From Trypanosoma brucei (lineage: Eukaryota), in the NCBI GenBank assembly GCA_000002445.1, contig CP000067.1:256001-320000 (forward strand): a stretch of 64,000 nt of DNA. The letters run 5' to 3'. The notes beneath the pieces were generated by a model. The model worked only from the letters and a program-made list of their open reading frames with translations. It did no database searches and was not told the origin of the DNA. Below are positions 7,093 through 64,000 of this stretch, one piece after another. The number at the start of each line of letters is the position of its first letter. Within the stretch, counting starts at the first letter, position 1. Made by a program: the position numbers and the translations under genes.

Positions 7093-7440
7093 GCCCCATG
7101 ACGCACTCCAGGCTCGAGGACAGGCGCACACACACAACTGTTAAGACGTCTACAGACTAAAAAGCGGAGGGACAAAAAAAGAAGTGCTGGGGCAGAAAAG
7201 ACAACAAGGCAAACAAGGGAGTAGTGAAAAGGTGTGCATCCTGATTCTTTTCGGCCATGAGGACCGGGCTTTTAAAAAGGAAGCAGCCGGACAAACGGTG
7301 GAGTTGATCGTAACGCCGTTAGTAGACGGCCACAGCAAAACAGAGGAGGGTATTAAAAAAAAGGGGAGAAGCAAATGAGAATAAGGGACGCAACATCCTC
7401 TCATTCTATACCTATTGAAAACAGAAACGGCTCCACCTAC

Positions 7441-15298: not shown

Positions 15299-18200
15299 CC
15301 CCTTAAATATTCAAGTGCCCCTTTTCCTCGCCTCGCGTCCACCACGCCTCAGGGAGCACTTAAAGAGAAAATTAAAACGAAAGAAAAAAAAAAAGGGAAA
15401 ACGGTGCGCCAATATAATTGGTACTCAAAAAAAAAAAGAAATGTGGTGTACAGACATATGTTTATATACACACATACATGCATTTATTTTGAAATAAAAA
15501 GAATGAAAAGATTAGAAAGGATTAGAAAAGAGAAAGGAGTAAGGTAAAGAAAAATAAAAATAAAAATAGAGAAGAGAAGACAGAAAAGACAGAAAAAAAC
15601 CCTGTGACTTATAACAAAGTACGTTCGTTAACCTCAGTAATGCACTAGGGTTCCATTTCTAGTAGTTTTTTTTTCCTTTTTTTTTTTGCTTTCCTCCTAA
15701 TTTCATTTTACTCTGACATGTAGTCGTTTCACTGTCCTCCCCCCTCCCCTCCCACATACCTTTTCCTTTCTTTCTTTTTTTTTTCCTCCCTCCCCCCTTT
15801 CCCTTCAGTTGCTCAGCGCATCTAAACAATACCACACACAGACACATAGCTTTAGTTTCTCCACACATTTACACAATTGTTTGCGCCATTGAAGGCTCTT
15901 TCATGCATCTGCATTAATGTTGCGAACACCCCCACAACGTGGGAACAAAATAACGGATGGAAGTGGTAATAATAATAATTATTATTATTATTATTATTAT
16001 TTAAAAAGAAAAGAAAGCAGTGAGGGAAGTGACAGCCGAGTGAGTGGCAATGGCGTGGCCGGTAGGCAAAACAATTTTGAGTTTCGGAATCTCCACCACT
16101 CGATTGTGTTGTCACCATTTCCTTCCAAAGTAAAAATTAAACAAAAAAGTGTTGTTGTTTTTTTTTTCTTCCATCATTCCGCCATTTCGATAGGGGGAGT
16201 CACAGACACACAAGAGCCGGCAATATGGCATTTGTTTTGTGGTGGTTATTGTGGTTGTTGTTTACTGCCTCCACATGTGTGGCAGTAAAGGAAAAAAAAG
16301 GGAAAAAGAAGAAGAAAGAAGAAGGAAGAAGGAATAAGGAATAAGGAAGGAAAAGAAAAAAGAAAAAAGAAAAAAAAACATCCTCACTTTTCCTCCACAC
16401 GAAAGCAAAACTGGCAATCCACGAGAAAACATGAGCCTCACATCTGAAAGATGTGAGTTCAAATAAAACAATTGCGCTTGCAACAAAACCCCGAACCAGC
16501 GGGGTTTCGTTACAAATGCGCATTGAAAAGGTATGGCAAAACGAAAAAAGAAAAGAAAAGAAAAGAAAAGAAAAGAGAAAAGATATGGACTGAAATGAGT
16601 TGACACACGGATGACTAGGGATGATAAATAAACAACTGCAACGGTTTTGATAAAACGACACGTGTTCTTTATGGACTTTTTTTTCTTTTCTTGCTTTTTT
16701 TGAAAGTTTGCCACTTATCGTTGGTTGTTGTTTCTTCATTTATTTATTCTTTTTTTTTTCCTCTCTTGGTTGTCCCGTCTTTCCGCACATCACATCTTGT
16801 TGTTCATTCCGCCACATCTCCACACACTCCTTTTGTTTTCCCTGAGTTATTGTTGTTGCTGTTGTTGTTGCTATATTATTATTGTTGTTATTACTATTAT
16901 TTCACATTTTTTTTCTTTTTAAACTACTTCCGTTTTCTTACGATTTCTTGGCTTTTTATTTTATTACATTTTATTTCATTTCATTTTTACCTCTTTTGTA
17001 CACTCTACCACACCTTTTCTTTTCTTTCCTTTTGTACTCTCACAATATCACCTCTACTTATTCCTTTCTTCAAACCACGGCAGAGGAAAACATGACACGA
17101 CAAATAATGAAATAAAATTAAGTTAACGATATAATTATATGAAGAAAAAAAAAAGAAAAAAAATGACGAGTTGACGCTGTGAAAAATCTACGAGGGAATG
17201 TCAAACAGCCGCTAAACTCAGTCCTCTCATTTGCCTGACGGGGAAACAAAAATGTGACGTGCATGAAAAAAAAAAAACAAAAAAAAAAGAAAATGAAAAT
17301 GAAAATGAAAAAGTGAAAACAAATGTTGGTAAAATAAATCATCGGACCCCGTCTTCATTTTAATTATCTTTATTATTATTATTGTTTTTTTTTACCGCTG
17401 CTGTTATTGTTATCAATAAGAAAAAGCACGCCGTGGTGATAAAAAAGAAAAAAAAGTGAGAGTAGAAGTAGAAAAAAAAAAAAATAAAACAACAACAACG
17501 TCAACAACAACAACAAAAAGAGGGAGAGGAGGTTTGATCAGCTGGCGGAAGAAAAAGTTGGGATCAAATTAAGATAACTTTCAAAAAAGAAAAAAAAAGA
17601 GAGAGGGGGAAAGGAAGGAAGGGAAATAAATAAATAAATGAGGGAGAGAAAGGGGGAAAAAAAAAAGAGAGAAAAGAGAAAAGGGAAGGAGAAGGAGAAG
17701 GGAAGGAAAAAGAAAAGAAAAGAAACTCCCATTCCCATTTACTTCACTTCATCACTGGCTTACTCACTTTACATGTGCGGTAATGTAAATATAAATACAT
17801 GTATAGACACATAAAGGAGTGCGGATACCCATACGGATATTCATACAGAAATAATATAAAGATAAACAAGATCGGTACATTGGTCTCATTCATCCACTTA
17901 CTCAATTTATTTATTTATTTGACTTTTGGTGACAACTGCGCGTTCATGGAGAAGAGGAAATCATGCAGTTTGAAGTGATGGAATTTTTTAAAAAAAAAAG
18001 CGGAGGTGCGTCCCATTTGACAAAAACATAACTCCTCACATTTTTTTTTTAAAAATGCTATTATTCTGTGGAGTTTTCTCCACCGAGGCCGAAGGATTAT
18101 TGATCATGGAAGAATTTGAAGAAATGGTGCACAATAATAATAATAAGTGATGGAAATGATGAAAAGGTGGGAAAACTTTAGAAAGAGGGCAGACAAATCC

Positions 18201-18999
18201 ACCACAAAGTGCAGCACCCTTCCGTAAACAATTTTTTTAAAAAGAAAACGTTCATGATTTCTCCTCCACTCGATCACTCACTCTTTCCTTCATTCTTTCA
18301 TTCATTCATTAACTGACAGAAGGGGAAAAGAAGAAAGAAGGTTAATAAATAAATAAATAAAAAGATGAATGGCCCGAGAGAAACACGCACATACGCGCGT
18401 CACGCAATCCACTGCGCAAACACATTCTGTTTTATATTAGCCAGGAGGAGATAAACAAAGGGGGAAAAGGGAGGGGCAAACAAACAAATAAAAACATAAA
18501 ATAGCATTAAAAGGGAAAAGCCGCAAAAAAAAAAAAAGCAAACGAAAACAAGGAGAAAAGAAAAAAGCCAGTTGCTTGAAGCATATCAAGAAAAACAGAG
18601 GCACGGGGAAGAAAAATAAGTGAATTTTGAAAAGTAATTATTTTTTTTTTGAAGGGAAATTTGCCTCACTGAAGTGCGGCAACAAACGCAGGCACGACAT
18701 GCGCATGTAAATATATATATTAAAATATGCGCCCCCGTGCCTGTTAAGGGGAGAGGAGGAAACACTCAAGGGAAAAAAGAGAAAGGGAAAATATGTGCCG
18801 CACTGACGTATATACTTCTGAAACATCACATACACAGGGACACATACACAGACACAAACACACACAAAAAAAAAAAAAACTGCCTCAAGGTTAATAAAAC
18901 TGGCTGAAAGGGAAAGAGAAGGGGAGGGGAAAAAAAAAAAATGGCGGCGGCCGCGGTTACGGCAAGGGGGAAAAAAATAGTAAATAAAAATGGGGTGCC
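15299..18999. repeat. 3.7-kb gene-free low-complexity region: alternating homopurine and homopyrimidine blocks, with (AAT/ATT)n, (GTT)n, (AAAG)n, (GAAAAT)n and (AAAT)n microsatellites
   Basis: No ORF over 180 aa, and only low-complexity translations. Visible runs: aataataataattattattatt (15958-15992), aaaagaaaagaaaag (16540-16580), ttgttgttgctgttgttgttg (16846-16870), gaaaatgaaaatgaaaatg (17291-17312). Confidence 0.85.
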
Positions 19000-19665
19000 C
19001 TACAGCTCCTGAGATCTTTCAGATGATTTTTTCAGCGACCTCACGGGCGGAAGAAACCCCTCGTCATCGCAAACAGCCCCACGGCGAGCTTCCAGCGGTG
19101 GTCGGACACCACTTCGCAGGCTCGCGTTGGATAACCGCTTCCCCGGCAGATCCACCAGAGACGAGGACATTTGCAGAGACTCGCAGCTTTCCTTTGATGA
19201 GTGGTATGTGCAATCGGAGCCGATGGATGAGCTCCGTGGGGATGGCGAAGACGCTTGATCCTGCCGCATGGCTTCGAATATGTAATTGAAATGTGGATGC
19301 GCATGACCCATCAACTGTTTCGTGGAATCCCCCTGTGGTGTTACAGGCGAATGGGGTTGCTCAGTAGGAGAAGGTATATGCTTCAATTTGTATTGACGAA
19401 ATGACAATTCCCCAAGTCGCATGAACACCAAGTGATTAAGCGCTCCCTCCTTCACAGCAGACTCATGAACCCGAAGCCGCTTATCCTTATACCCTTCCAG
19501 CGGGGCAAAAAACCAATTAACATAACCCTCAGGCTGCAACTCACCCACAAAACAATACCTTCTGTAGGAAAATGTACCCCCGAAATCCAACATGGGTGAG
19601 TAGCTGACCTTCGACAGAACCATGGGGACGCCGTCAACATTCATTTCCATAGGGAGCTCCATCAT
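19000..19665 (-). CDS. hypothetical protein (about 221 aa)
   Basis: ORF-track start 19689 is GTG; ATG at 19665 (MMELPMEMNV). N-terminal beta-rich region, Ser-rich tail. No confident family. Confidence 0.45.
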   Translation of the reverse strand: MMELPMEMNVDGVPMVLSKVSYSPMLDFGGTFSYRRYCFVGELQPEGYVNWFFAPLEGYKDKRLRVHESAVKEGALNHLVFMRLGELSFRQYKLKHIPSPTEQPHSPVTPQGDSTKQLMGHAHPHFNYIFEAMRQDQASSPSPRSSSIGSDCTYHSSKESCESLQMSSSLVDLPGKRLSNASLRSGVRPPLEARRGAVCDDEGFLPPVRSLKKSSERSQEL

Positions 19666-48639: not shown

Positions 48640-50803
48640 CGCAACGAGAGGCAAGCACCTTATACAAATTATTCGGGCTTGAAGAGCAGTGTTTTAAAAA
48701 AGTCAAAAGAAGAAGGGACATGTAACGAAGCAGCAAATATAATAATCAGTGGAGAAGAAAGCCGGGAATAGACATAGCAGGAGTTAATGAGACGCTGCCG
48801 GAACACAGCCAATAAATGTTGGCCAGTGGAGCTCCTCTAGTGACACGCAACCTTAATCTCTTTCCAGATATGAAACTCCCATTCCAACGCACTTTAGCTC
48901 ATAGCGCACCACCACCACCACTAGCTCACGCCACAGCGCGGGTACGACGGTACTGCTGGGATTGCGTTTGAACTTTTGCCCTCTGTAGTGGCGTTGAGAC
49001 CGAAGTAACTAGTGTGTCAGGTAAACTCAACAGCAAACAGAGATATGATAACGACTACGCGCCAACTCCTGCGTCCACAAGTACTTCGCCACATTCCAAG
49101 CTCACAACTGAAACTTAAATGATAGCCAAAGAGTCTAATCCAACACCTCTACACGTTGAGTCAGCTGCAGCCCATCCTGGTCACTCGTCAACGGAAAACA
49201 CAAGTGCACACCACTGAGAGCTGCTGGGAAGTCAAAACTGTAAGTAGACTGCATACCTCAATCCTCAGTCCTTTGTGTGTGTTCAACCTCCAGACACGTA
49301 GCATATACACAACTTTGCGCGCACAGATTGTTCCAGCCCCACCCATACACCACCAAAAACGTCAAGAATGTTCCCTCCCCCGCTCTGCCGTCTGTCACAC
49401 CTAATCTTCATCCCTCAACACCACAGCCACCTCTCCGCACACTGCTGCAGCAGTTGATGGCTGTGGTCAATCAGACCAACCTCCAACCGACACTGTTAAC
49501 ACCGCACCACTCTCGAATTAGTGAAAAGATGACATGCGTCGTCCAGTCGGTCGAACAACAAATATTGCAGGTCTACACCATCACGCAGGCAAACCAGCAG
49601 AATCCCACAACTTACCCAACAATAAGTGAAGCAATGCTCATCAGCGGTGTCAGGACTTTCTCTCCCGTAGCAAAAAGCCAACTATGATGTGTCACGGAGC
49701 CCCCTAGTACTCTTCCTAAACCCCACAGCAACCGTGCGTGGAGCGGGCCCAACACAATTTGAAGCTCTCTAGGCGCTTCAACAAACTGTGAAGTGCCTTC
49801 GTTTCTTCCTTCGCATGCATTTGCAAACAGAGCACAGCACCCGACTCGTTGCTGTCAACCTCAAACTGATATCTCGGCAGTTCTCCCCTTATGAAAGTAC
49901 CGGCCTTCCGATGGGAAAAGGTATATCAGCGAGAGGACATTGCGAAATATATCCGAACGACACAGCCTGAAATCAGTGCAAAACGTCGTACCGCTCCTCT
50001 CCATCCGTCTACCGCAAATAACTGGCGAGCAGATGTTTTGCGTGACCTGCAGGTTGCATCGAAATGTTGAGAGAATGAACAACATGTAACCAAGGTAATA
50101 CCAGCCCCCGTTCACACCTGTGAAACGATATCCATGTACGTACTGTTCAAAAGCAGACTTACCAAGCCATATAGCAGGGGTGAGGATCCGTTGCAAAGCG
50201 AAGGGGACAGACGACGTATAAAGGGTAAAAGCGAAAGGCACAACAAGGGATATTTCACCGCAGTAGCACCATAGCTACGCCTAAGCCCAGTACGAGCCCA
50301 TATAGCAACAGAGCCGTTGACCATCGCGCAAAAAACGAGTTTAATCGCGCATGAGTTGAGAGTCTACGTCCAGCAACTGACCGAAGGGTGCGACGTAGGG
50401 TTGAAACAAAAACCAAGTGGTGGTCACCTACGACAATACAGCGCCTTAATGTGCGGCAAAGATCGTCCAATTAGAGCCTAGGTAATCCCCGAACTCACAC
50501 ACGTGGTGTACATGAAGCTATGTAGTACAAACATCGAACGCCTATGAACATATCAACCATTTAAATGTACCATCTCGACCGAATGTCGCGAATTTGTGCG
50601 CGCAAGACCGACCAAACAACACAAAACTGAGCTAGTGATAGAACCAAGGCCACTGAACTGGGTACGGTTAAGGGGCGTTTTGTGATACTCTACACCGTCC
50701 CGACACCTCAAGTGCGTGAATTAAGCAATAAAAAATGCTGCGAGGTTAACCACCGAAACAGCAACCCTGCGGATCGGTACCCGCACCGGACGTCGATACT
50801 CTA

Positions 50804-53530
50804 TCACGACCATTTTTTAAGGAAAGGGTTGACGAGCACGTCCGGGTCGTCTGAAGAATCCCTCTTCCCCTCGACGACAGGAGGTATATCGCCACCCCAA
50901 ACGTGTCTCGTGGGCTGCGGAGAACCAGCTTGGTGACGCTGCGTGAAGTTCAGTGGCGCTGCGGGATACCCCGCGCTTGCTGCCGTTGGTGGTTTTGGAT
51001 GTGCTAACGAAGTCTTACTGGGCCCCATGCTTAGCTGTTTCACGGCAGAAGTTGGAACGGGCGCAAGATTCACCACAGGGGGCAGTGGGGCCGACACGCC
51101 TGCTGCAGCACCCGGAAATAGTTCCGCGGGACCACTCTGTGGTCCACCTTTAATAGGGTGGACTTCAGCCGCCTGATCTCCATGATGCTGCAGGTTCGTT
51201 GAAACCCTTCCAGCACATTGGAATTGCACTTCATTCGCTGATACCCTTTCCGTTTTAAAGTGTCTCCTTTGCTTCCAGCATTGTTGCAAAAATCCAGACG
51301 CGCTGACAGCAACAATACTAATAACTGTGAAAAAAAGTGTGCTCATATTTATCGAAGACGTTTCGCCTCCGTAAGTTCCCACATCACCACCAGCGAACGG
51401 GTTAGCATCGAGGGTTTGAGACTGCCCTGGAGCAGGTGTATTGCCGTGACTATCACCTACAGTGGTATTATCACTGGCGGTACAGCGGCAACCACCAACC
51501 GAAAAATCAGACTTATCTCGACCCCCTTGAACTGCTTCGTCGGTTAATCCAACAGTGTCCACGATTTTCGCCACAACCTGCCTAAGCTTCATAACACCTT
51601 CACGGCACTCGGGCACCAATTGATTCTGAACAACGCAGCGCCCCCTCATATTATACACATCGTCACCAATCAGGCTGGCGAGTGCGCTCGCGTCGTCAGC
51701 CAACTGCTTCAAAAGCACAACAAAATCCGTTCCATCCTCTCTGGTCTCTTCTAAAGAGACCTTGCCATCCCTCTCATAACGTTTCTGCAACTCAGTTTCA
51801 TCATCATCAGGTTGCTGTGGCTCAGCTTCATTATCATCAGGTTGCTGTGGCTCAGCTTCATTATCATCAGGTTGCTGTGGCTCAGTTTCATTATCATCAG
51901 GTTGCTGTGGCTCAGTTTCCTTATCATCAGGTTGCTGTGGCTCAGCTTCATTATCATCAGGTTGCTGTGCCTCAGTTTCCTTATCATCAGGTTGCTGTGC
52001 CTCAGTTTCATTATCATCAGGTTGCTGTGGTTCAGTTTCCTTATCATCAGGTTGCTGTGCCTCAGTTTCCTTATCATCAGGTTGCTGTGCCTCAGTTTCC
52101 TTGTCATCAGGTTGCTGTGCCTCAGTTTCCTTATCATCAGGTTGCTGTGGTTCAGTTTCCTTATCATCAGGTTGCTGTGCCTCAGTTTCCTTATCATCAG
52201 GTTGCTGTGCCTCAGTTTCCTTGTCATCAGGTTGCTGTGCCTCAGTTTCCTTATCATCAGGTTGCTGTGCCTCAGTTTCATTATCATCAGGTTGCTGTGG
52301 TTCAGTTTCCTTATCATCAGGTTGCTGTGCCTCAGTTTCCTTATCATCAGGTTGCTGTGCCTCAGTTTCCTTGTCATCAGGTTGCTGTGCCTCAGTTTCC
52401 TTATCATCAGGTTGCTGTGCCTCAGTTTCATTATCATCAGGTTGCTGTGCCTCAGTTTCATTATCATCAGGTTGCTGTGGCTCAGTTTCCTTATCATCAG
52501 GTTGCTGTGCCTCAGTTTCATTATCATCAGGTTGCTGTGCCTCAGTTTCATTATCATCAGGTTGCTGTGCCTCAGTTTCATTATCATCAGGTTGCTGTGC
52601 CTCAGTTTCCTTATCATCAGGTTGCTGTGCCTCAGTTTCCTTATCATCAGGTTGCTGTGGCTCAGTTTCCTTGTCATCAGGTTGCTGTGCCTCAGTTTCA
52701 TTATCATCAGGTTGCTGTGCCTCAGTTTCATTATCATCAGGTTGCTGTGCCTCAGTTTCCTTATCATCAGGTTGCTGTGCCTCAGTTTCCTTGTCATCAG
52801 GTTGCTGTGCCTCAGTTTCCTTGTCATCAGGTTGCTGTGCCTCAGTTTCATTGTCATCAGGTTGCTGTGGTTCACTTTCATTATCATCAGGTTGCTGTGC
52901 CTCAGTTTCCTTATCATCAGGTTGCTGTGCCTCAGTTTCCTTATCATCAGGTTGCTGTGGTTCACTTTCATTATCATCAGGTTGCTGTGCCTCAGTTTCC
53001 TTGTCATCAGGTTGCTGTGCCTCAGTTTCATTGTCATCAGGTTGCTGTGGTTCACTTTCATTATCATCAGGTTGCTGTGCCTCAGTTTCCTTATCATCAG
53101 GTTGCTGTGCCTCAGTTTCCTTATCATCAGGTTGCTGTGGTTCACTTTCATTATCATCAGGTTGCTGTGCCTCAGTTTCCTTGTCATCTGGCGGCTTTAC
53201 ACGAGCTGATCCATTGGTGGTGTGTGCTGCATCCCTCTCCTCTTCGTTGTGGTTTTTGGCTCTCATCACTTGGCTGCCGCGGCCCACGTTGTTCTCGTCC
53301 GCCTCCTGACGTCCTTGGGCGCCAGTCTTGAGCTGAGTATCGGTTCTGTGGAGGCCGCCATCGCCTTCGACAGGAAACCGAGGTGCTCTGTTGCTTCTGC
53401 GCACTGCTTTCAATGTCCGTGCCTCGCCCACTTTACCTGTGTTAGCGTGTGCTATACAAGTAGAACACCAGCCTGCAACGCATGACACAACGGTTAACAG
53501 AAGTATCTTTGCGGTGTGGAGATGACGCAT
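50804..53530 (-). CDS. repetitive acidic type I membrane (surface) protein: signal peptide, about 47 copies of a QQPDD(K/N)E(T/S)E(A/P) decapeptide, an about 150-aa domain, TM helix, and a Pro-rich cytoplasmic tail
   Basis: ATG at 53530. N-terminal signal peptide MRHLHTAKILLLTVVSCVAGWCSTCIAHA. TM helix LFFTVISIVAVSASGFLQQCW at about residue 735. It is the only one of six open frames across the repeat with a signal peptide, a TM helix and the strand of the gene array. Confidence 0.75.
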   Translation of the reverse strand: MRHLHTAKILLLTVVSCVAGWCSTCIAHANTGKVGEARTLKAVRRSNRAPRFPVEGDGGLHRTDTQLKTGAQGRQEADENNVGRGSQVMRAKNHNEEERDAAHTTNGSARVKPPDDKETEAQQPDDNESEPQQPDDKETEAQQPDDKETEAQQPDDNESEPQQPDDNETEAQQPDDKETEAQQPDDNESEPQQPDDKETEAQQPDDKETEAQQPDDNESEPQQPDDNETEAQQPDDKETEAQQPDDKETEAQQPDDKETEAQQPDDNETEAQQPDDNETEAQQPDDKETEPQQPDDKETEAQQPDDKETEAQQPDDNETEAQQPDDNETEAQQPDDNETEAQQPDDKETEPQQPDDNETEAQQPDDNETEAQQPDDKETEAQQPDDKETEAQQPDDKETEAQQPDDKETEPQQPDDNETEAQQPDDKETEAQQPDDKETEAQQPDDKETEAQQPDDKETEPQQPDDKETEAQQPDDKETEAQQPDDKETEAQQPDDKETEPQQPDDNETEAQQPDDKETEAQQPDDNEAEPQQPDDKETEPQQPDDNETEPQQPDDNEAEPQQPDDNEAEPQQPDDDETELQKRYERDGKVSLEETREDGTDFVVLLKQLADDASALASLIGDDVYNMRGRCVVQNQLVPECREGVMKLRQVVAKIVDTVGLTDEAVQGGRDKSDFSVGGCRCTASDNTTVGDSHGNTPAPGQSQTLDANPFAGGDVGTYGGETSSINMSTLFFTVISIVAVSASGFLQQCWKQRRHFKTERVSANEVQFQCAGRVSTNLQHHGDQAAEVHPIKGGPQSGPAELFPGAAAGVSAPLPPVVNLAPVPTSAVKQLSMGPSKTSLAHPKPPTAASAGYPAAPLNFTQRHQAGSPQPTRHVWGGDIPPVVEGKRDSSDDPDVLVNPFLKKWS
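51791..53190. repeat. tandem array of about 47 near-identical 30-bp units (consensus plus strand ttatcatcaggttgctgtgcctcagtttcc)
   Basis: Directly visible in the sequence. Units differ at 3-4 positions only (c/a, g/c, a/g), which gives the K/N, T/S and A/P alternations. All six frames are open across it. Confidence 0.95.
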
Positions 53531-53800
53531 CGTTAGGCCACCTTGGGAGTAGCTGATATTGAAGAAAGCACACCCCTTCAGATGATGAACTAAACAACAG
53601 GCTCAACTGTATGAGGTAGGTATTGAAATCCTGGGAAAATGTTGGGCGGGACCCCAACCACCTTACAAAGTGAAGGAGGTAGGAAAAGAAAATAACATGA
53701 TGACTCGGCAAACCACAAAATCTCTGACGCAGCAGTTAAATCAAGCAATAAAAAAGTGTTTCAACCATTGGTACCAAAAACCGGGTCCCTTACACAAATA

Positions 53801-54820
53801 TTAATCCCTACGTAGAGAAAATTCCATGGTGTCACCGGGAACAGTATCTATCCTAACCGGCTCCACACCCATGGTATCTATACTGGTACCAATCCGCATC
53901 ATTGTTCCACCGATGCGTTGCGGCTTCACGGGCGGGAGGTTTCTCAAAGATGGAGGTACCACTGGTGGCGCGTCGTATCCCACTTCTTCGAGTGACAAGC
54001 AAGGCCCCCTGGACCCAGCGCCACCAAGGAGGTCTCGCACGTCGCCTCTGGGATGAGGTACTACTATTTCAATAATATCAAGAGGCTTCATCTCCTTCTT
54101 CACTTCCTTTGCCATAACTTCATGCTTTATTTTCCACACACCTGACCCCTCCAGTGCCGCCTCGTCACGAATTTCCTCCGTGGTTTTTAGAGGTGCTGGG
54201 ATCGACCGAAGAATGTCGTCAGCAGCGGCTTTGGCTATATTAAGATCCTTCGCCTCGCTTTTAAGAAGAATAACCACGTGCTTCATGTTCCTTTCGGATG
54301 CAATATAGAGAGGACTTTTCCCATCTATGTCACAAACTTCAGTCTTCGCGTCCGCCCGAAGCAGGCGGTACACGACCTCGTGAAATCCCGCTTTAGCTGC
54401 AACGAACAGTGGAGTTTCTTTCCTACTGTTACGGGCATTAATATCACCTCCTTTTGCTAATATGATCTCAATGAGAGCAGCGTCACCGATGCGGGAAGCC
54501 AAATGCAGGACAGTCTCTCCGCCGCCGCCATTTACCACATTAGGATTCGCACCCCTTTCCAGCAGCAGCTGCGCAACATCCCTCTTTCCGTTAAAGCACG
54601 CTATGTACAGCGGGGTTTCAAGATCTGAACCCTTTAAATCTGTTTGCGCCCCCAGCTGCAGAATCTCCTTGACGGTGCTAACACCTACCCCCTTCTTCAT
54701 GCATGCGTAGTAGAGTGGCGTGTATCCGTCGGAGTTCGTAGTATTTACGTTGCCACACGACAAGGTGCGACGCAGTGTACCATGGTCCTGGCGGTCAATT
54801 GCATCAAAGGCGGCTTCCAT
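53801..54820 (-). CDS. ankyrin-repeat protein
   Basis: At least 5 ANK repeats (GYTPLYYACMKKG; ETPLYIACFNGKRDVAQLLLERGANPN; ETVLHLASRIGDAALIEIILAKGGDINA; ETPLFVAAKAGFHEVVYRLLRADAK; KSPLYIASE). ATG at 54820. Confidence 0.8.
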   Translation of the reverse strand: MEAAFDAIDRQDHGTLRRTLSCGNVNTTNSDGYTPLYYACMKKGVGVSTVKEILQLGAQTDLKGSDLETPLYIACFNGKRDVAQLLLERGANPNVVNGGGGETVLHLASRIGDAALIEIILAKGGDINARNSRKETPLFVAAKAGFHEVVYRLLRADAKTEVCDIDGKSPLYIASERNMKHVVILLKSEAKDLNIAKAAADDILRSIPAPLKTTEEIRDEAALEGSGVWKIKHEVMAKEVKKEMKPLDIIEIVVPHPRGDVRDLLGGAGSRGPCLSLEEVGYDAPPVVPPSLRNLPPVKPQRIGGTMMRIGTSIDTMGVEPVRIDTVPGDTMEFSLRRD

Positions 54821-56826: not shown

Positions 56827-58057
56827 TTGATTTGGTGGCGAGTGATATCAGATCTTGACGTCGAGCTAATGAGACTCAGTACGAAAAAAGTGCACGCAAC
56901 CTTTGTTTTCGTGGCAATGACAAAAGGTTCAAGTACCTTTAATGTGCGTAAAGAAGTTTTTTATAAAAAACTAAATTCATTTTTTGAAGCCCCACCAATC
57001 GGAACCCATCCACTCCTTCAATACTAACCACAGTGAAGTACTGGGATGTTATCGTGCAAAATAAAAAGGGTTGTGCATACGTGCTTATGCAACATAATTG
57101 ATTTCGTTCCACCCCCGTGTCAGATTTTCCTGGTTAGCACCTCCAACGTTTTGCTGGTACCTTTAAACGACAAATCTGTTTAGACAACATAGGAAAAGGC
57201 AAAGGAGTGAAAAGAAAACGTTAAAGGTGCCGCTGAAGGTTTGCACCACCTCAAAAAAACAAATAAATAAATAAAACGACGGTGGGGTAGAGAAGCGACT
57301 GCTGGTGGCGTAAACGGTGGATGCTGCAACCTCCGAAAAATGGCATATCTCTCTCAGGTCGTGGAGAGCAAACCATTCAACTAGAATGGCGAAAAGGAAG
57401 CACGGCAGACAAGTGCGCTTCTTCAAATCGCACGCACGCACGCACCATCACAGTGAAAAGGGGTATATGACACCTTTAGTTGGCTTCATGAACCAATGTA
57501 CAAATATTAGTAATACCATGTCCGAAAAATACAAGTCGCATTGCGCAATCAAACCGACGACGGGTTTGAGAAAGATGTGCCTTCAAGTAGTTGGTAAAAG
57601 GAGGGAAAGTTCGTACACACAAGCGAATGTGAGAGAGCCGCAATAATGGTTTCCCCGCTCTTCTGTTATTACACCGCCTGAATGAGACATTGTCCCTTCC
57701 CATCACCCTCAACAAGTTGATTACACCCATGGCACCAAATCTCCGCGTTGTGGAAACACGCGGCACGCCCATAATAAGCAGGCAAACTCACTACCACCCC
57801 ACACACATTTACGTCATTGGGAAGTTCTTGGCGCTCAACTTGGCTTGGGTGACAGATACAGCATTTTTTCTCTAGTTTCAGCGGCATAAAAATGGTTAGC
57901 TGCGGTTGAGCAGGACGTCAACAATCGTTAAATTCGGTGAATGGATCCTCCCCACCACCCCACCACCAAAAGGGAAAAAATGCAATCACGCGCAAACACG
58001 GCAAATCATAAAAACGCACTGAGGGGCCGCTTGATCATTAGGTAACCACACATTTGC

Positions 58058-58060
<3 letters not shown>

Positions 58061-58088
<28 letters not shown>
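58061..58088. repeat. (AC)n microsatellite
   Basis: acacac... x14 at 58061-58088. Confidence 0.9.
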
Positions 58089-61000
58089 CAAAATGGCACC
58101 ATCCTTAAAGTGAGGCGGAAGGGTAAGGGACATTTTCACCTTCCCATCAATCACTTAAAGCGACATAAGTGGCAGTAAGTGTGGCAACTTCAAGGGAAAA
58201 GGCAGTCCAAGTTGACAAGAGAAGGCAACATTATCCCAGCGGATATTCAACAAAATGTGAGATGCTGGGTTCTATCTAGTAAGCAGAACGGCATCTTACC
58301 CCTTCCTTTGAAGGGTGAACCCACATAATTAAACAAAGAGAAAAAGAAAATATCTGAACAAAAAACCAACGTACTCACTTATAAGTGTATATTGTAGCTT
58401 GAATGAAGACAGTGAGGCGCAGCACTCGATAAAGAATAAAATTTTGTTGTCAACCGTTCGCCGCAGTGAAAGATCACATAAAGGAAATACAGTGCGGGAA
58501 TCACCGCAAAACTTTCCAGAGTCCGTCTTCATCCTTCAAATCAACCTCCATAAAGACGACGAGTTGGAACAGCAAATTCCGAGCCGCTACAACCTCCAGC
58601 CGACGTAGTGCAAAACTGTGAAGCTCTCACATATTTAGCCGACGATCCAATCCTGTTTTTTTCTCTTTTCACACACTGCTGCATTCAAAAGTAGAAAGCG
58701 AGCAGAACAATTTGAACTTAAAAAACGGGGAAGCTAGGCTGTGACATATATCCCACAGCTGTGATCACCCAACTCCCAGCGCTGGGGATAAAACTGGAAA
58801 GTTAATCAGGGAAACAAACGAATGCATCAGACGCTCCTACAGGAAAAAAAAAGATCTGACTCATTCTAATTGACCCAGAAGCGCAAAAGGTTATAGTATC
58901 GCTGCTGTGAAGAGTAGCTTCATCACCACAACCGTCGCGTGGCATCAGCAACCCCTAACACCACATTACAGCAACTGTTACACGGTTTTTTAAAAAAAAA
59001 TCGTACCGTTAAGGGTACCAGCCTAAACAAAGACGTAAAAGCGTCCCTAATAGCATCGATTATTGAAAATGCTGAGTGAAAAATGTGCCTCACGTACCAA
59101 AGCAGTGCGTAAGCTCTTCTTATGCACAACTCAACCCAAGCCTTTCGGGGTCAAGGAAGTTTTTTTCTTGGATGGCCGTATGTACAGCCCAGCACTCGAG
59201 GGAAGCGCAGTCCGCGCAAAGGTAGTAAGGCATTGGGGTGGTGAACCCTCAAAAATGAAATTCCAGCGCATCACTACGAACGCATAGTCAAGCGTTCGGA
59301 ACCCTTGTACAAAACCAAACATCAAAAAGAGTTGCTGATGCAAATGGCGTACAAGTGAGGGCGCTCACAGAAGTTGTTAGCGCCTGCACCACTGTCACCC
59401 CCTCCCCTTCCCATCTCTCCATATGTCGGGTCAGTTATGTGCTTACCGATGGGCAAAACGGTTGAATAATAAGCAACAAACCGTAGTAACCTTCATTTTG
59501 ACTTCAACACAAAAACATTCTTGGCTTTCGCAGATATCCCCGCTCCAAGAGGATTGAAAGGACCGCACATACAACTGAACCTCCAAACAGCCAAAAGGGG
59601 GAAAGTCACCGGCACAACCTAACATCCACCACGCAAGAAGGATACAGAAGTGCCACGTCACAAAAATCAGTACATTCACTACACTAATACCTTCGCTTCG
59701 GACTGGTTACAACCAGTTCGCCGCGAGATAGGGCGCTACTGGATGAAGCTCGCAACCCCTTCACACCTCGCCCACAAAAGTCCAGGATACTTTACAGCAC
59801 ATTGTATGGTCCCCTTCAACGGCGACGACCACGACTGCATTGCACAATTTTGACGGATGGTTTTAAAAAAACAAGCGGAAGAAACAGGGGAATGTGCACA
59901 TACGATCCAACAAAGAACGTAGTAGCAGAATCAGGCTCACGAATTTCATCCTTGCAGCATCTTGCCGCTCCGGAAACCATATAAACAGTAACTTGAAAAC
60001 ACATTTCCACTACTACGCATACACAGAAAATAATGTGTGGTGCGCCGCGGAAGAACGTGCACGCCGACACATAGCAGATGCATCAATAAAGCAAACTAAG
60101 ACCAAATAACACAGGTTCAAACGGTTACATTGGTCGCATCACAAAGTAGCACTGGTAGCCGGTACAAATGCTAACAATGCCCAAACTTCTCAACGAATCA
60201 ACAAGTTATGTCCCTTCGTTGTTGAAAGAATCACATGATCATAAACACACAAGTACGTTTCCACAACCTACCTTCTCCCAGTCCACAAGACAAATAACGG
60301 ACTGAACAGTCCACTATGATGTCCCTTATTACTTTTTTTTCTTTAAAAAAATGACAAAGAACAGTTCTTCTGTCATAGTGTTGCTCCCAGAAAGTCCCAT
60401 TGAACACATGGGGTGGTAGAACACACGTAACCTCATTACCACTCGTGGTGTGGTACCTACATTGTACCCAATATGCAGATCGGTTATCAGAATCAGTTAA
60501 TCACACCAACACTGCAATTCTTTCCGCGAGTACCGACACATGTTATTCGAAGTGACGGCGTGATGTCAGCGACACGTGGCGACGGCGGTGCCGTAACCCC
60601 AGCGCCTGCTTCATGGCCAACATAAATAAGTTCCTGGTAATAGCTGGTTAAGACCTATTGCACCAACTATGTCGAATTACCGCCCAAGACTTAAAAACCG
60701 CGGCAGCTGAAGGAGGGAATGACACAGAATGGGTCAGGAAGCGGGAGAGAAATGATGATATTCACCTCCCCTACTTCTATTTGCAAAGCTTTAAAAAAAA
60801 CTCTACTATTCTCCATCCACCTCATAGCTGAGGTTGAGACCCTCAAATGAATTTCCACAGAAACACACACACACACCCGAAACCTTCTGTAACCCACCGC
60901 ACCAAACCATCATTGGGATCTCCGCTTCCGACTCTTTGCATGGATCAAGTGCAGGAAGATACATTACCAAGGAAAGAACACAAACGTAACTAGCACTACA

Positions 61001-61905
61001 AAAAAAAAAACTAACCTAATGAGGAGGGGCACAATGGAAGAAAATGCCCTGAAAGGACCGTGACACTTCGCCAGCACCATGGAAATCAAGCACGATTCTT
61101 CCAATCGCTTATAAAGGCACGAGTTTGACCACTCGCGTTTAACCTGGAATAGCAGAAGCCAGCAATCACTGTGTTCCAGATGGGGACCGTTATCCAGGCA
61201 TCGCAAGGCGGACCCGCTGCAACAGATACTTCTGTAAGACTAGGAAATATTCAAACAGAGAAATAGGTGAGGAAAACTGTATTTGTTCGAGGTGAAAAAA
61301 AACTCCCAGGAGCATCTGCCAACAAACACACGGGTGTGGAGTTCGGTGTAATCGCCCCCTGATGGTGGCGGGGGCGGCGTACCCTTAGAGGGGCTAAGTT
61401 CACGCGCAAGATGGGAACGCAGCCAAATATGCTTAAAAGCAGGTACAGTCACTCGCTTCAATGGGGGTGATAGCCTCGGACGGCGCGGTAGAACCCGAGT
61501 GGACACACTTCTGAGGCCACACCATCCTCACCACGTTACATCCGAATGCGGTGCTGGAACTTGCTTCGCCCGCGAATTTTATTGAAGGCACAGTGTCTTT
61601 CCAACGGGGAAAGAGGTTACCTCTGATGAGAGGATGTGTGAAATCACCGCCACACTCTATCTCCAAACGGCATTGGGGAAAAATTGGAAAGGTGGCGGAA
61701 ATAACTGCAGGGCCCTCTCCCGAAAAGGAAGAAAAAAGTCGCCATTAGCGCTTCCTACGACAAAATGTGAAAGCTTTGTACATCTTTATGAAGGATTGGA
61801 AAGAAAAACGAGGGGAAGTATTTTAGAACACACTCCGTCACTGACGAAAGCGGAAACCCCAGGGCGAGGCCGACACCTCGTCACTCACCCTTCCCACTAG
61901 ATGCG

Positions 61906-61910
61906 GAAAA
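61906..61910 (-). terminator. Pol III terminator T-run (T5) downstream of the tRNA-Pro
   Basis: Minus-strand GC then TTTTT follows the discriminator base (plus strand aaaaa at 61906-61910). Confidence 0.5.
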
Positions 61911-61912
61911 AG

Positions 61913-61984
61913 CGGGCCGTTGCGGGAATCGAACCCGCGGCCTCCTGTACCCGAAACAGGAATCATGCCACTAGACCAAACGGC
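61913..61984 (-). tRNA. tRNA-Pro (anticodon CGG)
   Basis: Minus-strand read GGCCGTTTGGTCTAGTGGCATGATTCCTGTTTCGGGTACAGGAGGCCGCGGGTTCGATTCCCGCAACGGCCC. 7-bp acceptor stem GGCCGTT/AACGGCC. A box TGGTCTAGTGG. Anticodon stem CCTGT/ACAGG with loop TTCGGGT (anticodon CGG, G37). B box GGTTCGATTCC. Nearly identical to canonical eukaryotic tRNA-Pro. Confidence 0.85.
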
Positions 61985-62059
61985 CACCGCGTCAGGGGCG
62001 ATAATTAATATACTTCTGGGTGCCACCTAAATTTCCACGTTCAGTCGTTGTTGACATTT

Positions 62060-62236
62060 GTTCAGGTGAGGCGATGCCGGCCACCTCAACGTGGTGCCAT
62101 GGTCCAGTACCCCGTATCATCGGGGGAAGCCAAGAGCCAGCAGCATTCCTTTCATGGGGAACAATGCTTTGCTTTTGCAACGGCACCGAGCAGCACTGAG
62201 ATGAGCCGCGCCGTGATGGAGAACATTTTTTTTTTG
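62060..62236 (+). ncRNA. candidate Pol III small RNA, divergent from the tRNA-Pro and ending in a T9 run (speculative)
   Basis: The stretch lies about 80-250 nt upstream of the tRNA 5' end on the opposite strand. GC-rich with hairpins (ccacctcaacgtgg; ccccgtatcatcgggg) and ends ...gagaacattttttttttg (T9 at 62227-62236). In T. brucei, Pol III snRNA-type genes pair with a divergent upstream tRNA whose A/B boxes act as the promoter. No match to a small RNA I can recall. Confidence 0.15.
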
Positions 62237-63467
62237 TAGAGCCCTGGGCACGTGTTCTCGTGCTATCGGCAGTTTGTTCTATGAATCACTGATTTGTTTC
62301 CGTTGGACTGATAAGTGTTCATGAGGCAATTTTCACCTTGCAGTGGCAGCTGTAGTCTCTCGACTGAGTGAAAGATGTGTGTGAGTTTGTCGTCCGAAGC
62401 GAAAAGGTGATGTAGTTGGCGGCGCTTAATGAAATAGCTGCGGTGCTGTTGACTGTTCCTCATGCGTGGAACGGGCGTAAAGCGGCATTTAAGAGGGTGC
62501 TGCATGTTTGATGTGTTTTCACTTCCGGAATAATTCGGTGGTGGCGTAGACGTACTACTATGTTTGTTGCAGCGGCCGTAGCGCTGAGTTATTGCACCGG
62601 TCAAGAAGTAGAACTAGAGCACGGGGAAAATGAAAAACCAGTAGTTTTGTGCTCAGGCGTATACCCAAAGTGTTCCGTATGTGTTGAGTAGGATAAACGG
62701 AGAAAAAAATGGATGAGAGCGTGGCGTTCACCAGAGTGGGTGCAATTAGAGGGTCCCCGAACTAACGGTTAAAAAATATATCACTTTTCCAGGTTGTCAC
62801 AGGAGTTTTGTCACATGAGCCCGCTATGTGCAGCCCCTAAGCATCAAGGGAAGAATCTTTGTAAGTATAGGAACACCGATCGTAATAAATGGGCGCAGAG
62901 ACTGCCGGTGTTGTTGAGTTCTAGATTAAGGTAAACACAAGTTTTTAATTCCGAGCACGAAGTGTGTTGTAATTGAAGGGTATGTATCATTTATAGTGTG
63001 TGCTACTGGGTGTTTCTCACGCACAAGAAATACTTTGTTGATACCACAAAATCAAGAATACTGTAGTCTTTTTCCTCACGGAATGTAGAAAAATCGAAGG
63101 TGAATGCAAGGTCGTCACTTTAGCGTATACAATGGTTTCATCTCATTTTTTATCTTTCTTTTACTGACCTGGAAATAACGCTTTTGTTACCCCGGAGTCA
63201 GATGATAGGTGGGCCTTTCAGGGAGACGGGGAACAAATACAATGCAAGTGGAGATGACAAGGGTGTGGTAGATGAATGATTCGCAATATGGGGGGAACTT
63301 GCGGTAAATTTACTATCTCTTGTACAGGTGTTGGTTGTATGATCGTACTTAGTATTGTGGAAGTGTTTTTTTTTCACCATTGTTTTGTACGTGTTGTATC
63401 TGTTGTTGTTGGGTGGTAAAGTGTTTATATTTTGTTTTTTGTGTGTTTGGGTAGGGAATTGTAGGTA

Positions 63468-64000
63468 ATGAAAGTCAAGATTATAGAATGGTTGGTCTTC
63501 CTATCTTTTGTTATTTATACCGAAGGGGCCGAAGACGAAGGTCGCTGCAGACTGGTAGATGATCATTCTTTTAAAAATTTACATGAATCCGTATGCTATC
63601 TCAGCTGCCTTTCGGATGCACTAAACAAATTATACACCAATGGAGAGAGGAAGTTGCTTGTGAATGAGGAAGTATATGCGAACGCATCTCGTATATTGGA
63701 TGATATGGAAGGGAGAGCAGGTGAAAGTGTCAAATATTTGAGTGTTATTAGTGATGCAATGGGAGGGAAACATGATAAATTGGAAAAACTTATATCTTAT
63801 GGAAATACAATGGGAGACCTGGTGGCTAAGGTAGGTGGATTATTTGCTGATGTTAATGAAAGTGTGAGGGTGGTGAGAGAGCTGTTGCCCACTGCCCTCA
63901 TGGAAGCAAATAGATACTATACGGCCAGTGCAGAAATTACAAGGACTGTGTGGGATGATGTTAAGGCGGTAGAGGGCAGCGACGAGGAAGCTGCAAAGTG
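63468..64000 (+). CDS. N-terminal part of a secreted/surface-type protein (signal peptide plus helical ectodomain), running past the window end
   Basis: ATG at 63468, preceded by a T/G-rich tract and AG (..gtagggaattgtaggtaATG). Predicted signal peptide MKVKIIEWLVFLSFVIYTEGAED. 177 codons with no stop. AT-rich third codon positions, unlike the upstream genes. The helical, Cys-poor sequence resembles ectodomains of trypanosome surface protein families. Confidence 0.5.
   Translation, partial: MKVKIIEWLVFLSFVIYTEGAEDEGRCRLVDDHSFKNLHESVCYLSCLSDALNKLYTNGERKLLVNEEVYANASRILDDMEGRAGESVKYLSVISDAMGGKHDKLEKLISYGNTMGDLVAKVGGLFADVNESVRVVRELLPTALMEANRYYTASAEITRTVWDDVKAVEGSDEEAAK

What the first reader, a model, noticed from the sequence alone, without database searches (positions are those of the whole stretch)
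50804..53530. Membrane protein built on about 47 near-perfect acidic decapeptide repeats, with switchable N-glycosylation sequons
Architecture: signal peptide, about 85 aa, about 47 copies of QQPDD(K/N)E(T/S)E(A/P), an about 150-aa non-repetitive domain, one TM helix, and an about 150-aa Pro-rich cytoplasmic tail. This is the layout of kinetoplastid surface or flagellar-pocket repeat proteins (CRAM-like organisation), but the repeat is neither Cys-rich nor a unit I recognise. A single nucleotide (ctt or att on the plus strand) toggles Lys or Asn within each unit. The Asn version creates an N-E-T or N-E-S sequon, so the array is a mosaic of glycosylatable and non-glycosylatable units. The ectodomain is extremely acidic (net about -4 per 10 aa) and could act as a cation- or ligand-binding brush. 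The 2.1-kb spacer downstream is consistent with a long regulatory 3'UTR, as seen for stage-regulated surface genes.
Basis: partly seen in the sequence, partly recalled or inferred. Interest (0 to 1): 0.7.

Follow-up and report, generated by a model that had tools for sequence, protein, structure and literature searches.

The report
Uncharacterised trypanosome repeat-stalk membrane glycoprotein Tb927.4.1160
This is a real, expressed but unstudied Trypanosoma brucei gene (Tb927.4.1160) for a single-pass membrane glycoprotein whose outer part is a 47-unit acidic repeat; the gene is conserved across trypanosomes, but only the brucei group has this repeat, so it is a moderately interesting member of a familiar class.

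Summary
Window 50804-53530 (-) is an intact 908-aa ORF: signal-like N-terminus, 83-aa basic region, 47 decapeptide units (30 bp x 46.6, 94% identity), 147-aa non-repeat region, one TM helix and a 156-aa Pro-rich tail. AAG/AAT toggles Lys/Asn.

The window is T. brucei TREU927 chromosome 4. The gene is Tb927.4.1160, annotated "hypothetical protein, conserved", and I found no functional study of it.

Published bloodstream-form glycoproteomics detected its peptides with Asn106 N-glycosylated. That shows expression and a lumenal or extracellular N-terminal part.

Syntenic orthologues exist in T. vivax, T. cruzi, T. theileri, T. melophagium, T. grayi and T. conorhini. They share the layout, a Cys-x9-C helical hairpin and a conserved C-terminus, LxN(P/L)FLx(R/K)WS. 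Their 27-30-bp arrays encode Pro-free E/A/R/Q units, predicted alpha-helical in T. theileri. The Pro-containing, sequon-bearing acidic unit was seen only in T. brucei and T. b. equiperdum.

Array length differs between strains (47 vs 30 units). "Switchable" glycosylation is ordinary unit heterogeneity. Stage regulation is not supported: mRNA max/min is 1.31 across five stages. Location (surface, pocket, endosome or ER; T. brucei ends in KKWS) is unknown.

Best reading: a sorted type I glycoprotein carrying a long charged spacer or brush. It is a new member of a known kind.

The parts
50804..53530 (-). Complete CDS of Tb927.4.1160 (908 aa plus stop).
   Evidence: ORF listing. Window coordinate 50804 corresponds to chr4:306804, the position given for Tb927.4.1160 in the Jensen 2009 supplement. 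Flanking proteins match TREU927 accessions exactly.
53444..53530 (-). N-terminal signal-like segment, aa 1-29 (MRHLHTAK + 20-residue hydrophobic core + A-H-A).
   Evidence: Hydropathy peak of 2.09 at aa 9-27. Translocation of the downstream sequence is shown by N-glycosylation at N106. Cleavage itself is inferred, not shown.
53195..53443 (-). 83-aa basic pre-array region (pI 10.5, net +5). It contains Asn106 (codon 53213-53215), which is N-glycosylated in bloodstream forms.
   Evidence: Composition. Peptides DAAHTTNGSAR (18O-deamidated) and NHNEEERDAAHTTNGSAR (HexNAc) in PMC5724017 supplements.
51788..53194 (-). 47-unit decapeptide array (Q/P)QPDD(K/N/D)E(T/S/A)E(A/P/L). Net charge -162, 13% Pro, 16 NE[ST] sequons. 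Contains higher-order duplications.
   Evidence: TRF. Unit census. Nucleotide-unit string ICAACGDCAACGDDABBJAABBBHBBADAFBADAFADAFBAEHKEEL.
51548..51754 (-). Conserved membrane-distal core of the non-repeat ectodomain, aa ~593-661: helix - Cys632-x9-Cys642 loop - helix.
   Evidence: Both Cys are invariant in the six-species alignment A1. Helix-loop-helix appears in the AF2 secondary structure, at low confidence; the T. theileri model is similar.
51275..51346 (-). Transmembrane helix, aa ~729-752 (MSTLFFTVISIVAVSASGFLQQCW), followed by KQRRHFK.
   Evidence: Hydropathy 1.9. Aligned with the TM segment of all orthologues.
50807..51274 (-). 156-aa Pro-rich cytoplasmic tail.
   Evidence: Composition. 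Orthologue tails are also Pro-rich; tail duplications are seen in T. theileri and T. grayi.
50807..50842 (-). Conserved extreme C-terminus DVLVNPFLKKWS. Family consensus is [DE][LV]xxN(P/L)FLx(R/K)WS. In T. brucei the last four residues also fit a KKXX di-lysine motif.
   Evidence: L319, N321, F323, L324, W327 and S328 are invariant in A1. Orthologue termini are shown.
48640..50803 (-). 2164-nt downstream spacer, inferred to be a ~1.9-kb 3'UTR plus the 5' processing region of Tb927.4.1150. Polypyrimidine tracts occur only at 48694-48772.
   Evidence: Pyrimidine-window scan. The UTR length is inferred from the known coupling of polyadenylation to downstream trans-splicing in trypanosomes.
53531..53800 (-). 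270-nt upstream intergenic region, with a polypyrimidine tract around 53668-53695 followed by AG. This is the likely trans-splice acceptor region.
   Evidence: Sequence read.

Best explanation
The feature is Tb927.4.1160 of T. brucei TREU927 chromosome 4. It is a genuine, expressed gene that is annotated but functionally uncharacterised.

**What it encodes.** A type I membrane glycoprotein. The N-terminal hydrophobic segment takes the chain into the ER. The 83-aa basic head, the 470-aa repeat array and a small disulfide-looped helical hairpin lie on the lumenal or extracellular side. One helix spans the membrane. A 156-aa Pro-rich tail faces the cytosol.

**Family.** The gene belongs to a family conserved in synteny across the genus Trypanosoma. 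The constant parts are the hairpin, the TM helix, the Pro-rich tail and the C-terminal motif LxN(P/L)FLx(R/K)WS. The variable part is a 27-30-bp tandem array that encodes a long, highly charged segment.

**What changed in the brucei group.** In the other species the array is Pro-free E/A/R/Q sequence, predicted alpha-helical in T. theileri and so rod-like. In the T. brucei group the unit is QQPDD(K/N)ETE(A/P), which cannot be a continuous helix. It should instead form an extended polyanionic chain with about 16 acid-flanked sequons, the type preferred by the oligosaccharyltransferase TbSTT3A.

**Inferred mechanism.** The array acts as a passive spacer or brush, providing steric, electrostatic or cation-binding bulk. 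The conserved tail motif engages cytosolic sorting machinery that fixes the protein's location.

**Array dynamics.** The array expands, contracts and reshuffles K and N units by unequal recombination. There is no dedicated switch.

**Shown:** gene identity, intact frame, expression in bloodstream forms, glycosylation of N106, conservation and synteny, strain length polymorphism.

**Inferred:** signal-peptide cleavage, occupancy of the array sequons, the spacer or brush role, the sorting role of the C-terminal motif, and the location.
For: **Identity**
- Neighbouring proteins match TREU927 chr4 accessions AAZ10690-AAZ10710 exactly.
- The Jensen 2009 supplement places Tb927.4.1160 at 306804, between Tb927.4.1150 and the ankyrin gene Tb927.4.1170.

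**Expression and topology**
- Lectin-enriched bloodstream-form glycoproteomics lists two Tb927.4.1160 peptides with N106 modified: HexNAc after Endo H, and 18O-Asp after PNGase F. The site was counted 3+3.
- There are only two hydrophobic segments, and basic residues follow the second.

**Family**
- A gene with the same layout sits between the ankyrin and Tb927.4.1150 orthologues in T. theileri, T. cruzi, T. vivax, T. grayi and T. melophagium. T. conorhini has it upstream of the Tb927.4.1150 orthologue, on a contig that begins inside the array.
- Alignment A1 has two invariant Cys and an invariant C-terminal motif.
- Orthologous arrays are 30 bp x 20.5, 30 bp x 37 and 27 bp x 54.

**Physical nature of the arrays**
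- AF2 models the T. theileri array as a long helix, aa 64-355, with pLDDT about 70-89.
- The T. brucei array is 13% Pro with net charge -162.

**Polymorphism**
- 47 units in TREU927 against 30 in T. b. equiperdum, with different unit order and internal higher-order duplications. The flanks differ at only 1/112 and 4/327 residues.

**Sequons**
- The published predictor scores the array sites as TbSTT3A substrates, 0.83-0.87.
- TbSTT3A's preference for acidic flanks is stated in PMC5724017.
Against: - There are no localisation or phenotype data. The gene ID is absent from the held supplements of TrypTag, hyperLOPIT and a bloodstream surface proteome. This is weak evidence, because those files may be truncated.
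- No array glycopeptide appears in the glycoproteomic tables, so occupancy of the array sequons is unproven.
- The AF2 model of the T. brucei C-terminal part is unusable (pLDDT 33).
- The NPF core of the motif is NLF in T. grayi, which weakens an EH-domain reading.
- The orthologous arrays range from polyampholyte to polyanion. A specific acidic function such as cation binding therefore cannot be the conserved one.
- T. congolense and non-Trypanosoma kinetoplastids could not be examined.
Confidence: 0.55

Rival explanations
1. ER-resident lumenal protein. In T. brucei the tail ends in K-K-W-S, a canonical KKXX di-lysine COPI retrieval signal for type I proteins. The polyanionic array would then sit in the ER lumen, for example as a low-affinity Ca2+ buffer or a lumenal spacer, and not on the surface.
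For: - The terminal sequence ...NPFLKKWS has Lys at -3 and -4.
- The gene ID is absent from the bloodstream surface-proteome supplement.
- N106 is half Endo H-sensitive, i.e. carries oligomannose.
- The array has net charge -162.
Against: - Orthologues end in QRWS, and in HRWSR in T. vivax, so di-lysine is not the conserved feature.
- Endo H resistance in T. brucei arises in the ER through TbSTT3A, so the 50:50 ratio does not discriminate ER from post-Golgi location.
- The orthologous arrays are near-neutral polyampholytes, so Ca2+ buffering cannot be the ancestral role.
Confidence: 0.2
2. Cell-surface or flagellar-pocket receptor or adhesin in the manner of CRAM. The acidic array would bind a host or vector ligand or cations, and expression would be stage-controlled through the long 3'UTR.
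For: - The layout is SP - repeat - TM - tail.
- The protein is glycosylated in bloodstream forms.
- The 3'UTR is inferred to be long, about 1.9 kb.
- An acid-flanked NET sequon also occurs in the CRAM repeat listed in PMC2254594.
Against: - The mRNA is nearly flat across five life-cycle stages, with max/min of 1.31.
- It is not in the held surface-proteome tables.
- The unit has no Cys and no LDL-receptor-like module.
- The repeat sequence is not conserved between species, which argues against a specific ligand-binding unit.
- An invariant 470-residue repeat projecting beyond the VSG coat would be an exposed antibody target (inference).
Confidence: 0.2
3. Assembly or annotation artefact: the long open frame would be produced by a mis-assembled or collapsed repeat.
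For: - Every frame examined is open across the array, which produces four spurious overlapping ORFs.
- Short-read assemblies break at this locus. The T. equiperdum OVI contig ends inside the array.
- The T. cruzi assembly has a frameshift in its array.
Against: - The independent long-read T. b. equiperdum assembly has the intact gene.
- N-terminal peptides have been observed by MS.
- The C-terminal part downstream of the array is conserved in frame across seven species.
- Only the exact unit count remains uncertain.
Confidence: 0.03

Closest known systems
CRAM (cysteine-rich acidic repetitive membrane protein) of T. brucei
   Same: Signal peptide, very long acidic short-period tandem array, single TM helix and cytoplasmic tail. 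There is an NET sequon in an acidic context inside the repeat (CRAM unit ITGDCNETDDC, PMC2254594).
   Different: The CRAM unit is Cys-rich; this unit has no Cys. No sequence similarity was detectable and no shared domain was found. This protein has a much longer Pro-rich tail with a different conserved terminus. Its mRNA is not procyclic-specific.
Procyclins (EP/GPEET) of T. brucei
   Same: Acidic, Pro-containing short repeats that are expected to form an extended polyanionic chain. (The properties of procyclins are from my own knowledge.)
   Different: Procyclins are small, GPI-anchored and strictly procyclic. This protein has a TM helix plus a 156-aa cytosolic tail, and it is detected in bloodstream forms.
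TGN38/TGN46 and sialomucins such as podocalyxin (animal type I proteins)
   Same: Type I topology, a tandem-repeat acidic and glycosylated lumenal or extracellular domain, and a short C-terminal sorting or docking motif in the tail. This is an analogy of working principle, from my own knowledge.
   Different: There is no homology. The glycosylation predicted here is N-linked rather than O-linked. The tail motif is unrelated.
ER/K single alpha-helix (SAH) spacers (e.g. in myosin VI/X, caldesmon)
   Same: The orthologues' E/A/R/Q decapeptides (AEAEEAERRR, AEEEAAKRHQ) have the composition of ER/K helices. The T. theileri array is modelled as a helix of about 290 residues.
   Different: Known SAHs are cytosolic; these would be lumenal or extracellular. 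The T. brucei unit has Pro in every unit and no Arg, so it does not qualify.

Membership tests
Tb927.4.1160 orthogroup (syntenic Trypanosoma repeat-stalk membrane protein; no Pfam family) | Position between the ankyrin-repeat gene (Tb927.4.1170 orthologue) and the Tb927.4.1150 orthologue, on the same strand. | tested here: met
   Window ORFs. The same order is seen in T. b. equiperdum, T. theileri, T. cruzi, T. vivax, T. grayi and T. melophagium.
Tb927.4.1160 orthogroup (syntenic Trypanosoma repeat-stalk membrane protein; no Pfam family) | Layout: SP - 27/30-bp charged tandem array - helix/Cys-x9-Cys/helix - TM - Pro-rich tail. | tested here: met
   Both Cys are invariant in A1.
Tb927.4.1160 orthogroup (syntenic Trypanosoma repeat-stalk membrane protein; no Pfam family) | C-terminal motif LxN(P/L)FLx(R/K)WS. 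| tested here: met
   T. brucei has LVNPFLKKWS. The motif residues are invariant columns in A1.
CRAM-type Cys-rich acidic repeat membrane proteins | Cys-rich 12-residue repeat unit. | tested here: not met
   No Cys occurs in any of the 47 units. No Cys-rich repeat domain appears in the Pfam scan.
CRAM-type Cys-rich acidic repeat membrane proteins | Flagellar-pocket localisation and procyclic-enriched expression. | not testable with these tools
   No localisation data were found. The microarray shows a flat mRNA profile.
Procyclin-like GPI-anchored acidic repeat coat proteins | C-terminal GPI-addition signal, with no cytosolic tail. | tested here: not met
   The hydrophobic segment at aa 729-752 is followed by a 156-residue hydrophilic tail.
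N-glycoproteins of the T. brucei secretory pathway | At least one experimentally occupied N-X-S/T sequon. | tested here: met
   N106 was found with HexNAc and as 18O-Asp in the PMC5724017 supplements. This is literature data, read here.
N-glycoproteins of the T. brucei secretory pathway | Occupancy of the 16 array sequons. | tested here: inconclusive
   The sites are predicted TbSTT3A substrates at 0.83-0.87, but no array peptide appears among the observed glycopeptides.
KKXX di-lysine ER-retrieved type I proteins | Lys at -3 and -4 from the C-terminus of a type I membrane protein. | tested here: met
   The protein ends ...KKWS. The feature is not conserved in orthologues (QRWS, HRWSR), and ER residence itself was not testable.
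ER/K single alpha-helix spacers | Pro-free alternating E and K/R sequence able to form a continuous helix. | tested here: not met
   The T. brucei unit has one or two Pro and no Arg. The feature is met by the T. theileri orthologue, whose array is modelled as helix with pLDDT 70-89.

The most novel reading that the evidence does not exclude
The family is a previously undescribed Trypanosoma-wide "molecular ruler". In this reading it is a lumenal or extracellular rod whose length, set by the array, fixes a spacing in the flagellar pocket, endosomal or ER lumen. It would be held in place by a new C-terminal sorting signal, LxNPFLxRWS. The African T. brucei lineage would then have converted the rigid ER/K-type helix into a flexible, TbSTT3A-glycosylated polyanionic brush as an adaptation to its own surface biology.
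Probability: 0.12. Interest if true: 0.6.

Novelty: new member of a known kind. Interest (0 to 1): 0.35.

Why it matters
If the spacer-plus-sorting-motif reading holds, Tb927.4.1160 and its orthologues give three things:
- a conserved, genus-wide membrane protein with a testable new tail motif;
- a natural experiment in which a rigid helical stalk was replaced by a disordered glycosylated one;
- a length-polymorphic invariant repeat, which could serve as a strain marker or serodiagnostic antigen.

There is also a practical point. This family is systematically broken or missed in assemblies and annotations because of its array (T. cruzi, T. vivax, T. grayi, T. conorhini, T. equiperdum OVI). It is not a new biological principle.

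Tried and rejected
**Searches that found nothing useful**
1. Word-index homology search with the 327-aa C-terminal part found nothing. With the six-species profile it found only T. theileri and T. melophagium. It missed even the 99%-identical T. b. equiperdum protein, so this tool is blind here, probably because low-complexity candidates swamp it.
2. Exhaustive phmmer over 1.84 billion representatives found only the T. b. equiperdum orthologue plus one spurious repeat protein. Orthologues were found only through synteny.
3. Pfam searches of the protein and its orthologues and a PDB profile search gave nothing significant. The best PDB hit was CP12 at E=0.086.

**Structure and sequence comparison**
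4. AF2 on the T. brucei C-terminal part with a 4-sequence alignment gave pLDDT 33. I therefore ran no fold search.
5. Cyclic nucleotide comparison of the T. brucei unit with the T. theileri and T. cruzi units gave 15-16 of 30 identities, p = 0.07-0.31. Descent of the brucei unit from the E/A/R unit is possible, since several codons differ by one base, but it is not demonstrated.

**Literature**
6. Full-text searches for the repeat peptides and gene IDs found no relevant paper.
7. The gene ID was not found in the TrypTag, hyperLOPIT, surface-proteome or Kolev transcriptome supplements.

**Not retrievable**
8. The T. congolense locus could not be fetched.

**Ideas rejected**
- "Switch" mechanism for the sequons: there is no feature beyond unit heterogeneity.
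- EH-domain binding as the firm reading of NPF: T. grayi has NLF.
Full report
**Observation.** The window holds an uninterrupted 908-aa ORF at 50804-53530 on the minus strand. Tandem Repeats Finder reports one array at 51791-53188: period 30, 46.6 copies, 94% matches, no indels, score 2383. It is the only array in the 64-kb window scoring 100 or more. Translation gives 46 QQPDDxExEx units plus a leading PPDDKETEA. Of the 47 units, 27 are K, 19 are N and 1 is D. Sixteen units carry N-E-[ST]. Only two segments are hydrophobic enough for a membrane helix, aa 7-28 and aa 726-750, and the second is followed by KQRRHFK. The array has net charge -162 over 469 residues and is 13% Pro. The 83-aa region in front of it is basic (pI 10.5), and the tail is about 14% Pro.

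**Identity.** Exact protein look-ups place the window on chromosome 4 of T. brucei brucei TREU927. The ankyrin gene at 53801-54820 is AAZ10708/XP_844267, and nine other ORFs match AAZ10690-AAZ10710. The Jensen et al. 2009 supplement lists Tb927.4.1160, "hypothetical protein conserved", at chr4:306804. It lies between Tb927.4.1150 (302414) and the ankyrin gene Tb927.4.1170 (309801), which fits window coordinate 50804 with an offset of 256,000. All ORFs of 200 aa or more outside the array lie on the minus strand from 0.5 to 56.8 kb, apart from three short plus-strand ORFs at 34-46 kb that overlap longer minus-strand ones, as expected for a kinetoplastid polycistronic unit. No paper in the searchable library mentions the gene, its strain synonyms or its repeat peptide in the main text.

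**Experimental evidence.** Supplementary tables of Jinnelov et al. 2017 (PMC5724017) contain two Tb927.4.1160 peptides. These come from glycoproteomics of VSG-depleted bloodstream-form ghosts enriched on ricin and ConA. The peptides are R.DAAHTTNGSAR.V, with Asn converted to 18O-Asp by PNGase F, and K.NHNEEERDAAHTTNGSAR.V, carrying the HexNAc left by Endo H. Site 106 was scored 3+3. This shows three things: the protein is made in bloodstream forms, the annotated N-terminal frame is right, and the segment just before the array is exposed to the ER lumen. Together with the single downstream TM helix and its basic flank, this gives a type I topology, with the array outside or lumenal and the Pro-rich tail cytosolic. 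Cleavage of the signal segment is inferred, not shown. The same paper's predictor scores the array sequons as TbSTT3A substrates (0.83-0.87). However, no array peptide is among the observed glycopeptides, so array glycosylation remains a prediction.

**Relatives.** Sequence searches with the non-repeat C-terminal part were almost blind. Synteny was decisive. I took orthologues of the downstream neighbour Tb927.4.1150 and fetched their loci. A gene with the same layout sits between the ankyrin and Tb927.4.1150 orthologues in these species:
- T. theileri: 700 aa, annotated as uncharacterised
- T. melophagium: 640 aa
- T. cruzi: split by a frameshift inside the array, and not called
- T. vivax: about 927 aa, not called
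- T. grayi: split by an N-gap

T. conorhini also has the gene, upstream of the Tb927.4.1150 orthologue on a contig that starts inside the array, so the ankyrin side is missing. A six-species alignment of the post-array parts is only 16-21% identical to T. brucei. It nevertheless keeps two invariant Cys (C-x9-C between two predicted helices), the TM helix, a Pro-rich tail and an invariant C-terminal motif L-x-N-(P/L)-F-L-x-(R/K)-W-S. There is no Pfam family and no PDB relative.

**The arrays.** All orthologues have a short-period array in the same place: 30 bp x 20.5 in T. theileri, 30 bp x 37 in T. cruzi and 27 bp x 54 in T. vivax. Their units are AEAEEAERRR, AEEEAAKRHQ and EQAEQHREE. These are Pro-free and have ER/K-like composition. 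AF2 models the T. theileri array as a helix spanning aa 64-355 with pLDDT 70-89; this rests on a two-sequence alignment and is indicative only. The T. brucei unit has Pro in every unit, and two Pro in 14 of the 47 units. It has no Arg and a net charge of -3 to -4, so it cannot form such a helix. The conserved property is therefore a long, highly charged, extended segment, and not acidity or any particular sequence. Whether the brucei unit descends from the E/A/R unit by point changes is unresolved (15-16 of 30 identities, p = 0.07-0.31).

**Turnover.** The long-read T. b. equiperdum assembly encodes a 738-aa orthologue with 30 units (30 bp x 29.6). It differs from TREU927 at 1 of 112 N-terminal and 4 of 327 C-terminal residues. 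The order of unit types differs completely between the two. TREU927 also shows higher-order duplications, a six-unit block repeated twice and a four-unit block repeated three times. This is the signature of unequal recombination. Sequon counts are 16 of 47 units against 15 of 30. The K/N mosaic is thus ordinary heterogeneity between units. I found nothing that would make it "switchable" in a regulated sense.

**Expression and UTR.** The five-stage microarray values are 6871, 6700, 5669, 6839 and 5251, for cultured, slender and stumpy bloodstream forms and log and stationary procyclics. Max/min is 1.31, so strong stage regulation of the mRNA is not supported. The 2164-nt downstream spacer has strong polypyrimidine tracts only 2.03-2.11 kb after the stop, just upstream of Tb927.4.1150. 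Polyadenylation in trypanosomes is coupled to downstream trans-splicing, which implies a 3'UTR of roughly 1.9 kb (inference). Similar spacers of about 2 kb follow the gene in T. theileri and T. melophagium, but not in T. vivax, where it is 0.65 kb.

**Mechanism.** The best-supported reading is a sorted type I glycoprotein that carries a passive charged spacer. In most trypanosomes this is a rod. In T. brucei it is a disordered polyanionic chain that probably carries N-glycans, giving a brush. The invariant C-terminal motif and Pro-rich tail would be the cytosolic handle for trafficking.

Location is the main unknown. In T. brucei the terminus KKWS fits a KKXX ER-retrieval signal, but orthologues end in QRWS or HRWSR. 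The 50:50 Endo H result cannot separate ER from post-Golgi location, because TbSTT3A installs Endo H-resistant glycans in the ER. The gene ID is absent from the held supplements of a bloodstream surface proteome, hyperLOPIT and TrypTag. This is weak negative evidence.

**Comparison with known proteins.**
- CRAM shares only the gross layout and an acid-flanked NET in the unit. The Cys-rich unit that defines CRAM is absent.
- Procyclins share the acidic, Pro-containing repeat character but are GPI-anchored.
- TGN38/46 and sialomucins are functional analogies only.
- ER/K single helices describe the orthologues but not the T. brucei array.

**Verdict.** The gene is real, expressed and glycosylated. 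It is annotated but uncharacterised, and it belongs to a genus-wide syntenic family with a lineage-specific repeat. I class it as a new member of a known kind. Interest is moderate to low (0.35). The most useful new points are the family definition, the conserved tail motif, and the change from a helical to a disordered array in the brucei lineage.

Noticed in passing
window 56827-64000: There is no complete ORF of 120 aa or more in about 7 kb upstream of the LicD gene. A tRNA-Pro(CGG) lies at 61914-61985 (-), and GC skew flips to +0.26 at 62-64 kb. This looks like the boundary of the polycistronic unit or a strand-switch region. In T. cruzi, T. theileri and T. grayi a gene of about 2060 aa lies directly upstream of LicD instead.
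   Followed up: partly
window 15300-19000: An AT-rich stretch (GC 0.34 at 16-18 kb, with positive GC skew) with no ORF of 200 aa or more sits inside an otherwise uniform minus-strand gene array. It has no Rfam hit at gathering threshold.
   Followed up: no
window 51682-53331: Four long spurious ORFs (549, 478, 465 and 402 aa) overlap the array on both strands, because the 30-bp unit has no stop codon in those frames. They should not be read as genes.
   Followed up: yes
L005 6214-8630; L003 5303-9347; L007 5737-8099; L008 1-1151; L001 end: The orthologous gene is broken or missed in several public assemblies and annotations:
- a frameshift inside the array in T. cruzi
- no gene call for it or for the ankyrin gene in T. 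vivax
- an N-gap and split models in T. grayi
- contigs that start or end inside the array in T. conorhini and T. equiperdum OVI

   Followed up: yes
L006 7519-7776; L007 ~7119-8099: The cytoplasmic Pro-rich tail is itself tandemly duplicated in T. theileri (117 bp x 2.2) and T. grayi (two copies of about 45 aa). The tail is therefore also evolving by duplication.
   Followed up: no
window 50807-51787 (query); P0055: The word-index protein search did not return the 99%-identical T. b. equiperdum protein that is present in its own collection. A negative result from that tool is unreliable for low-complexity or Pro-rich queries.
   Followed up: partly
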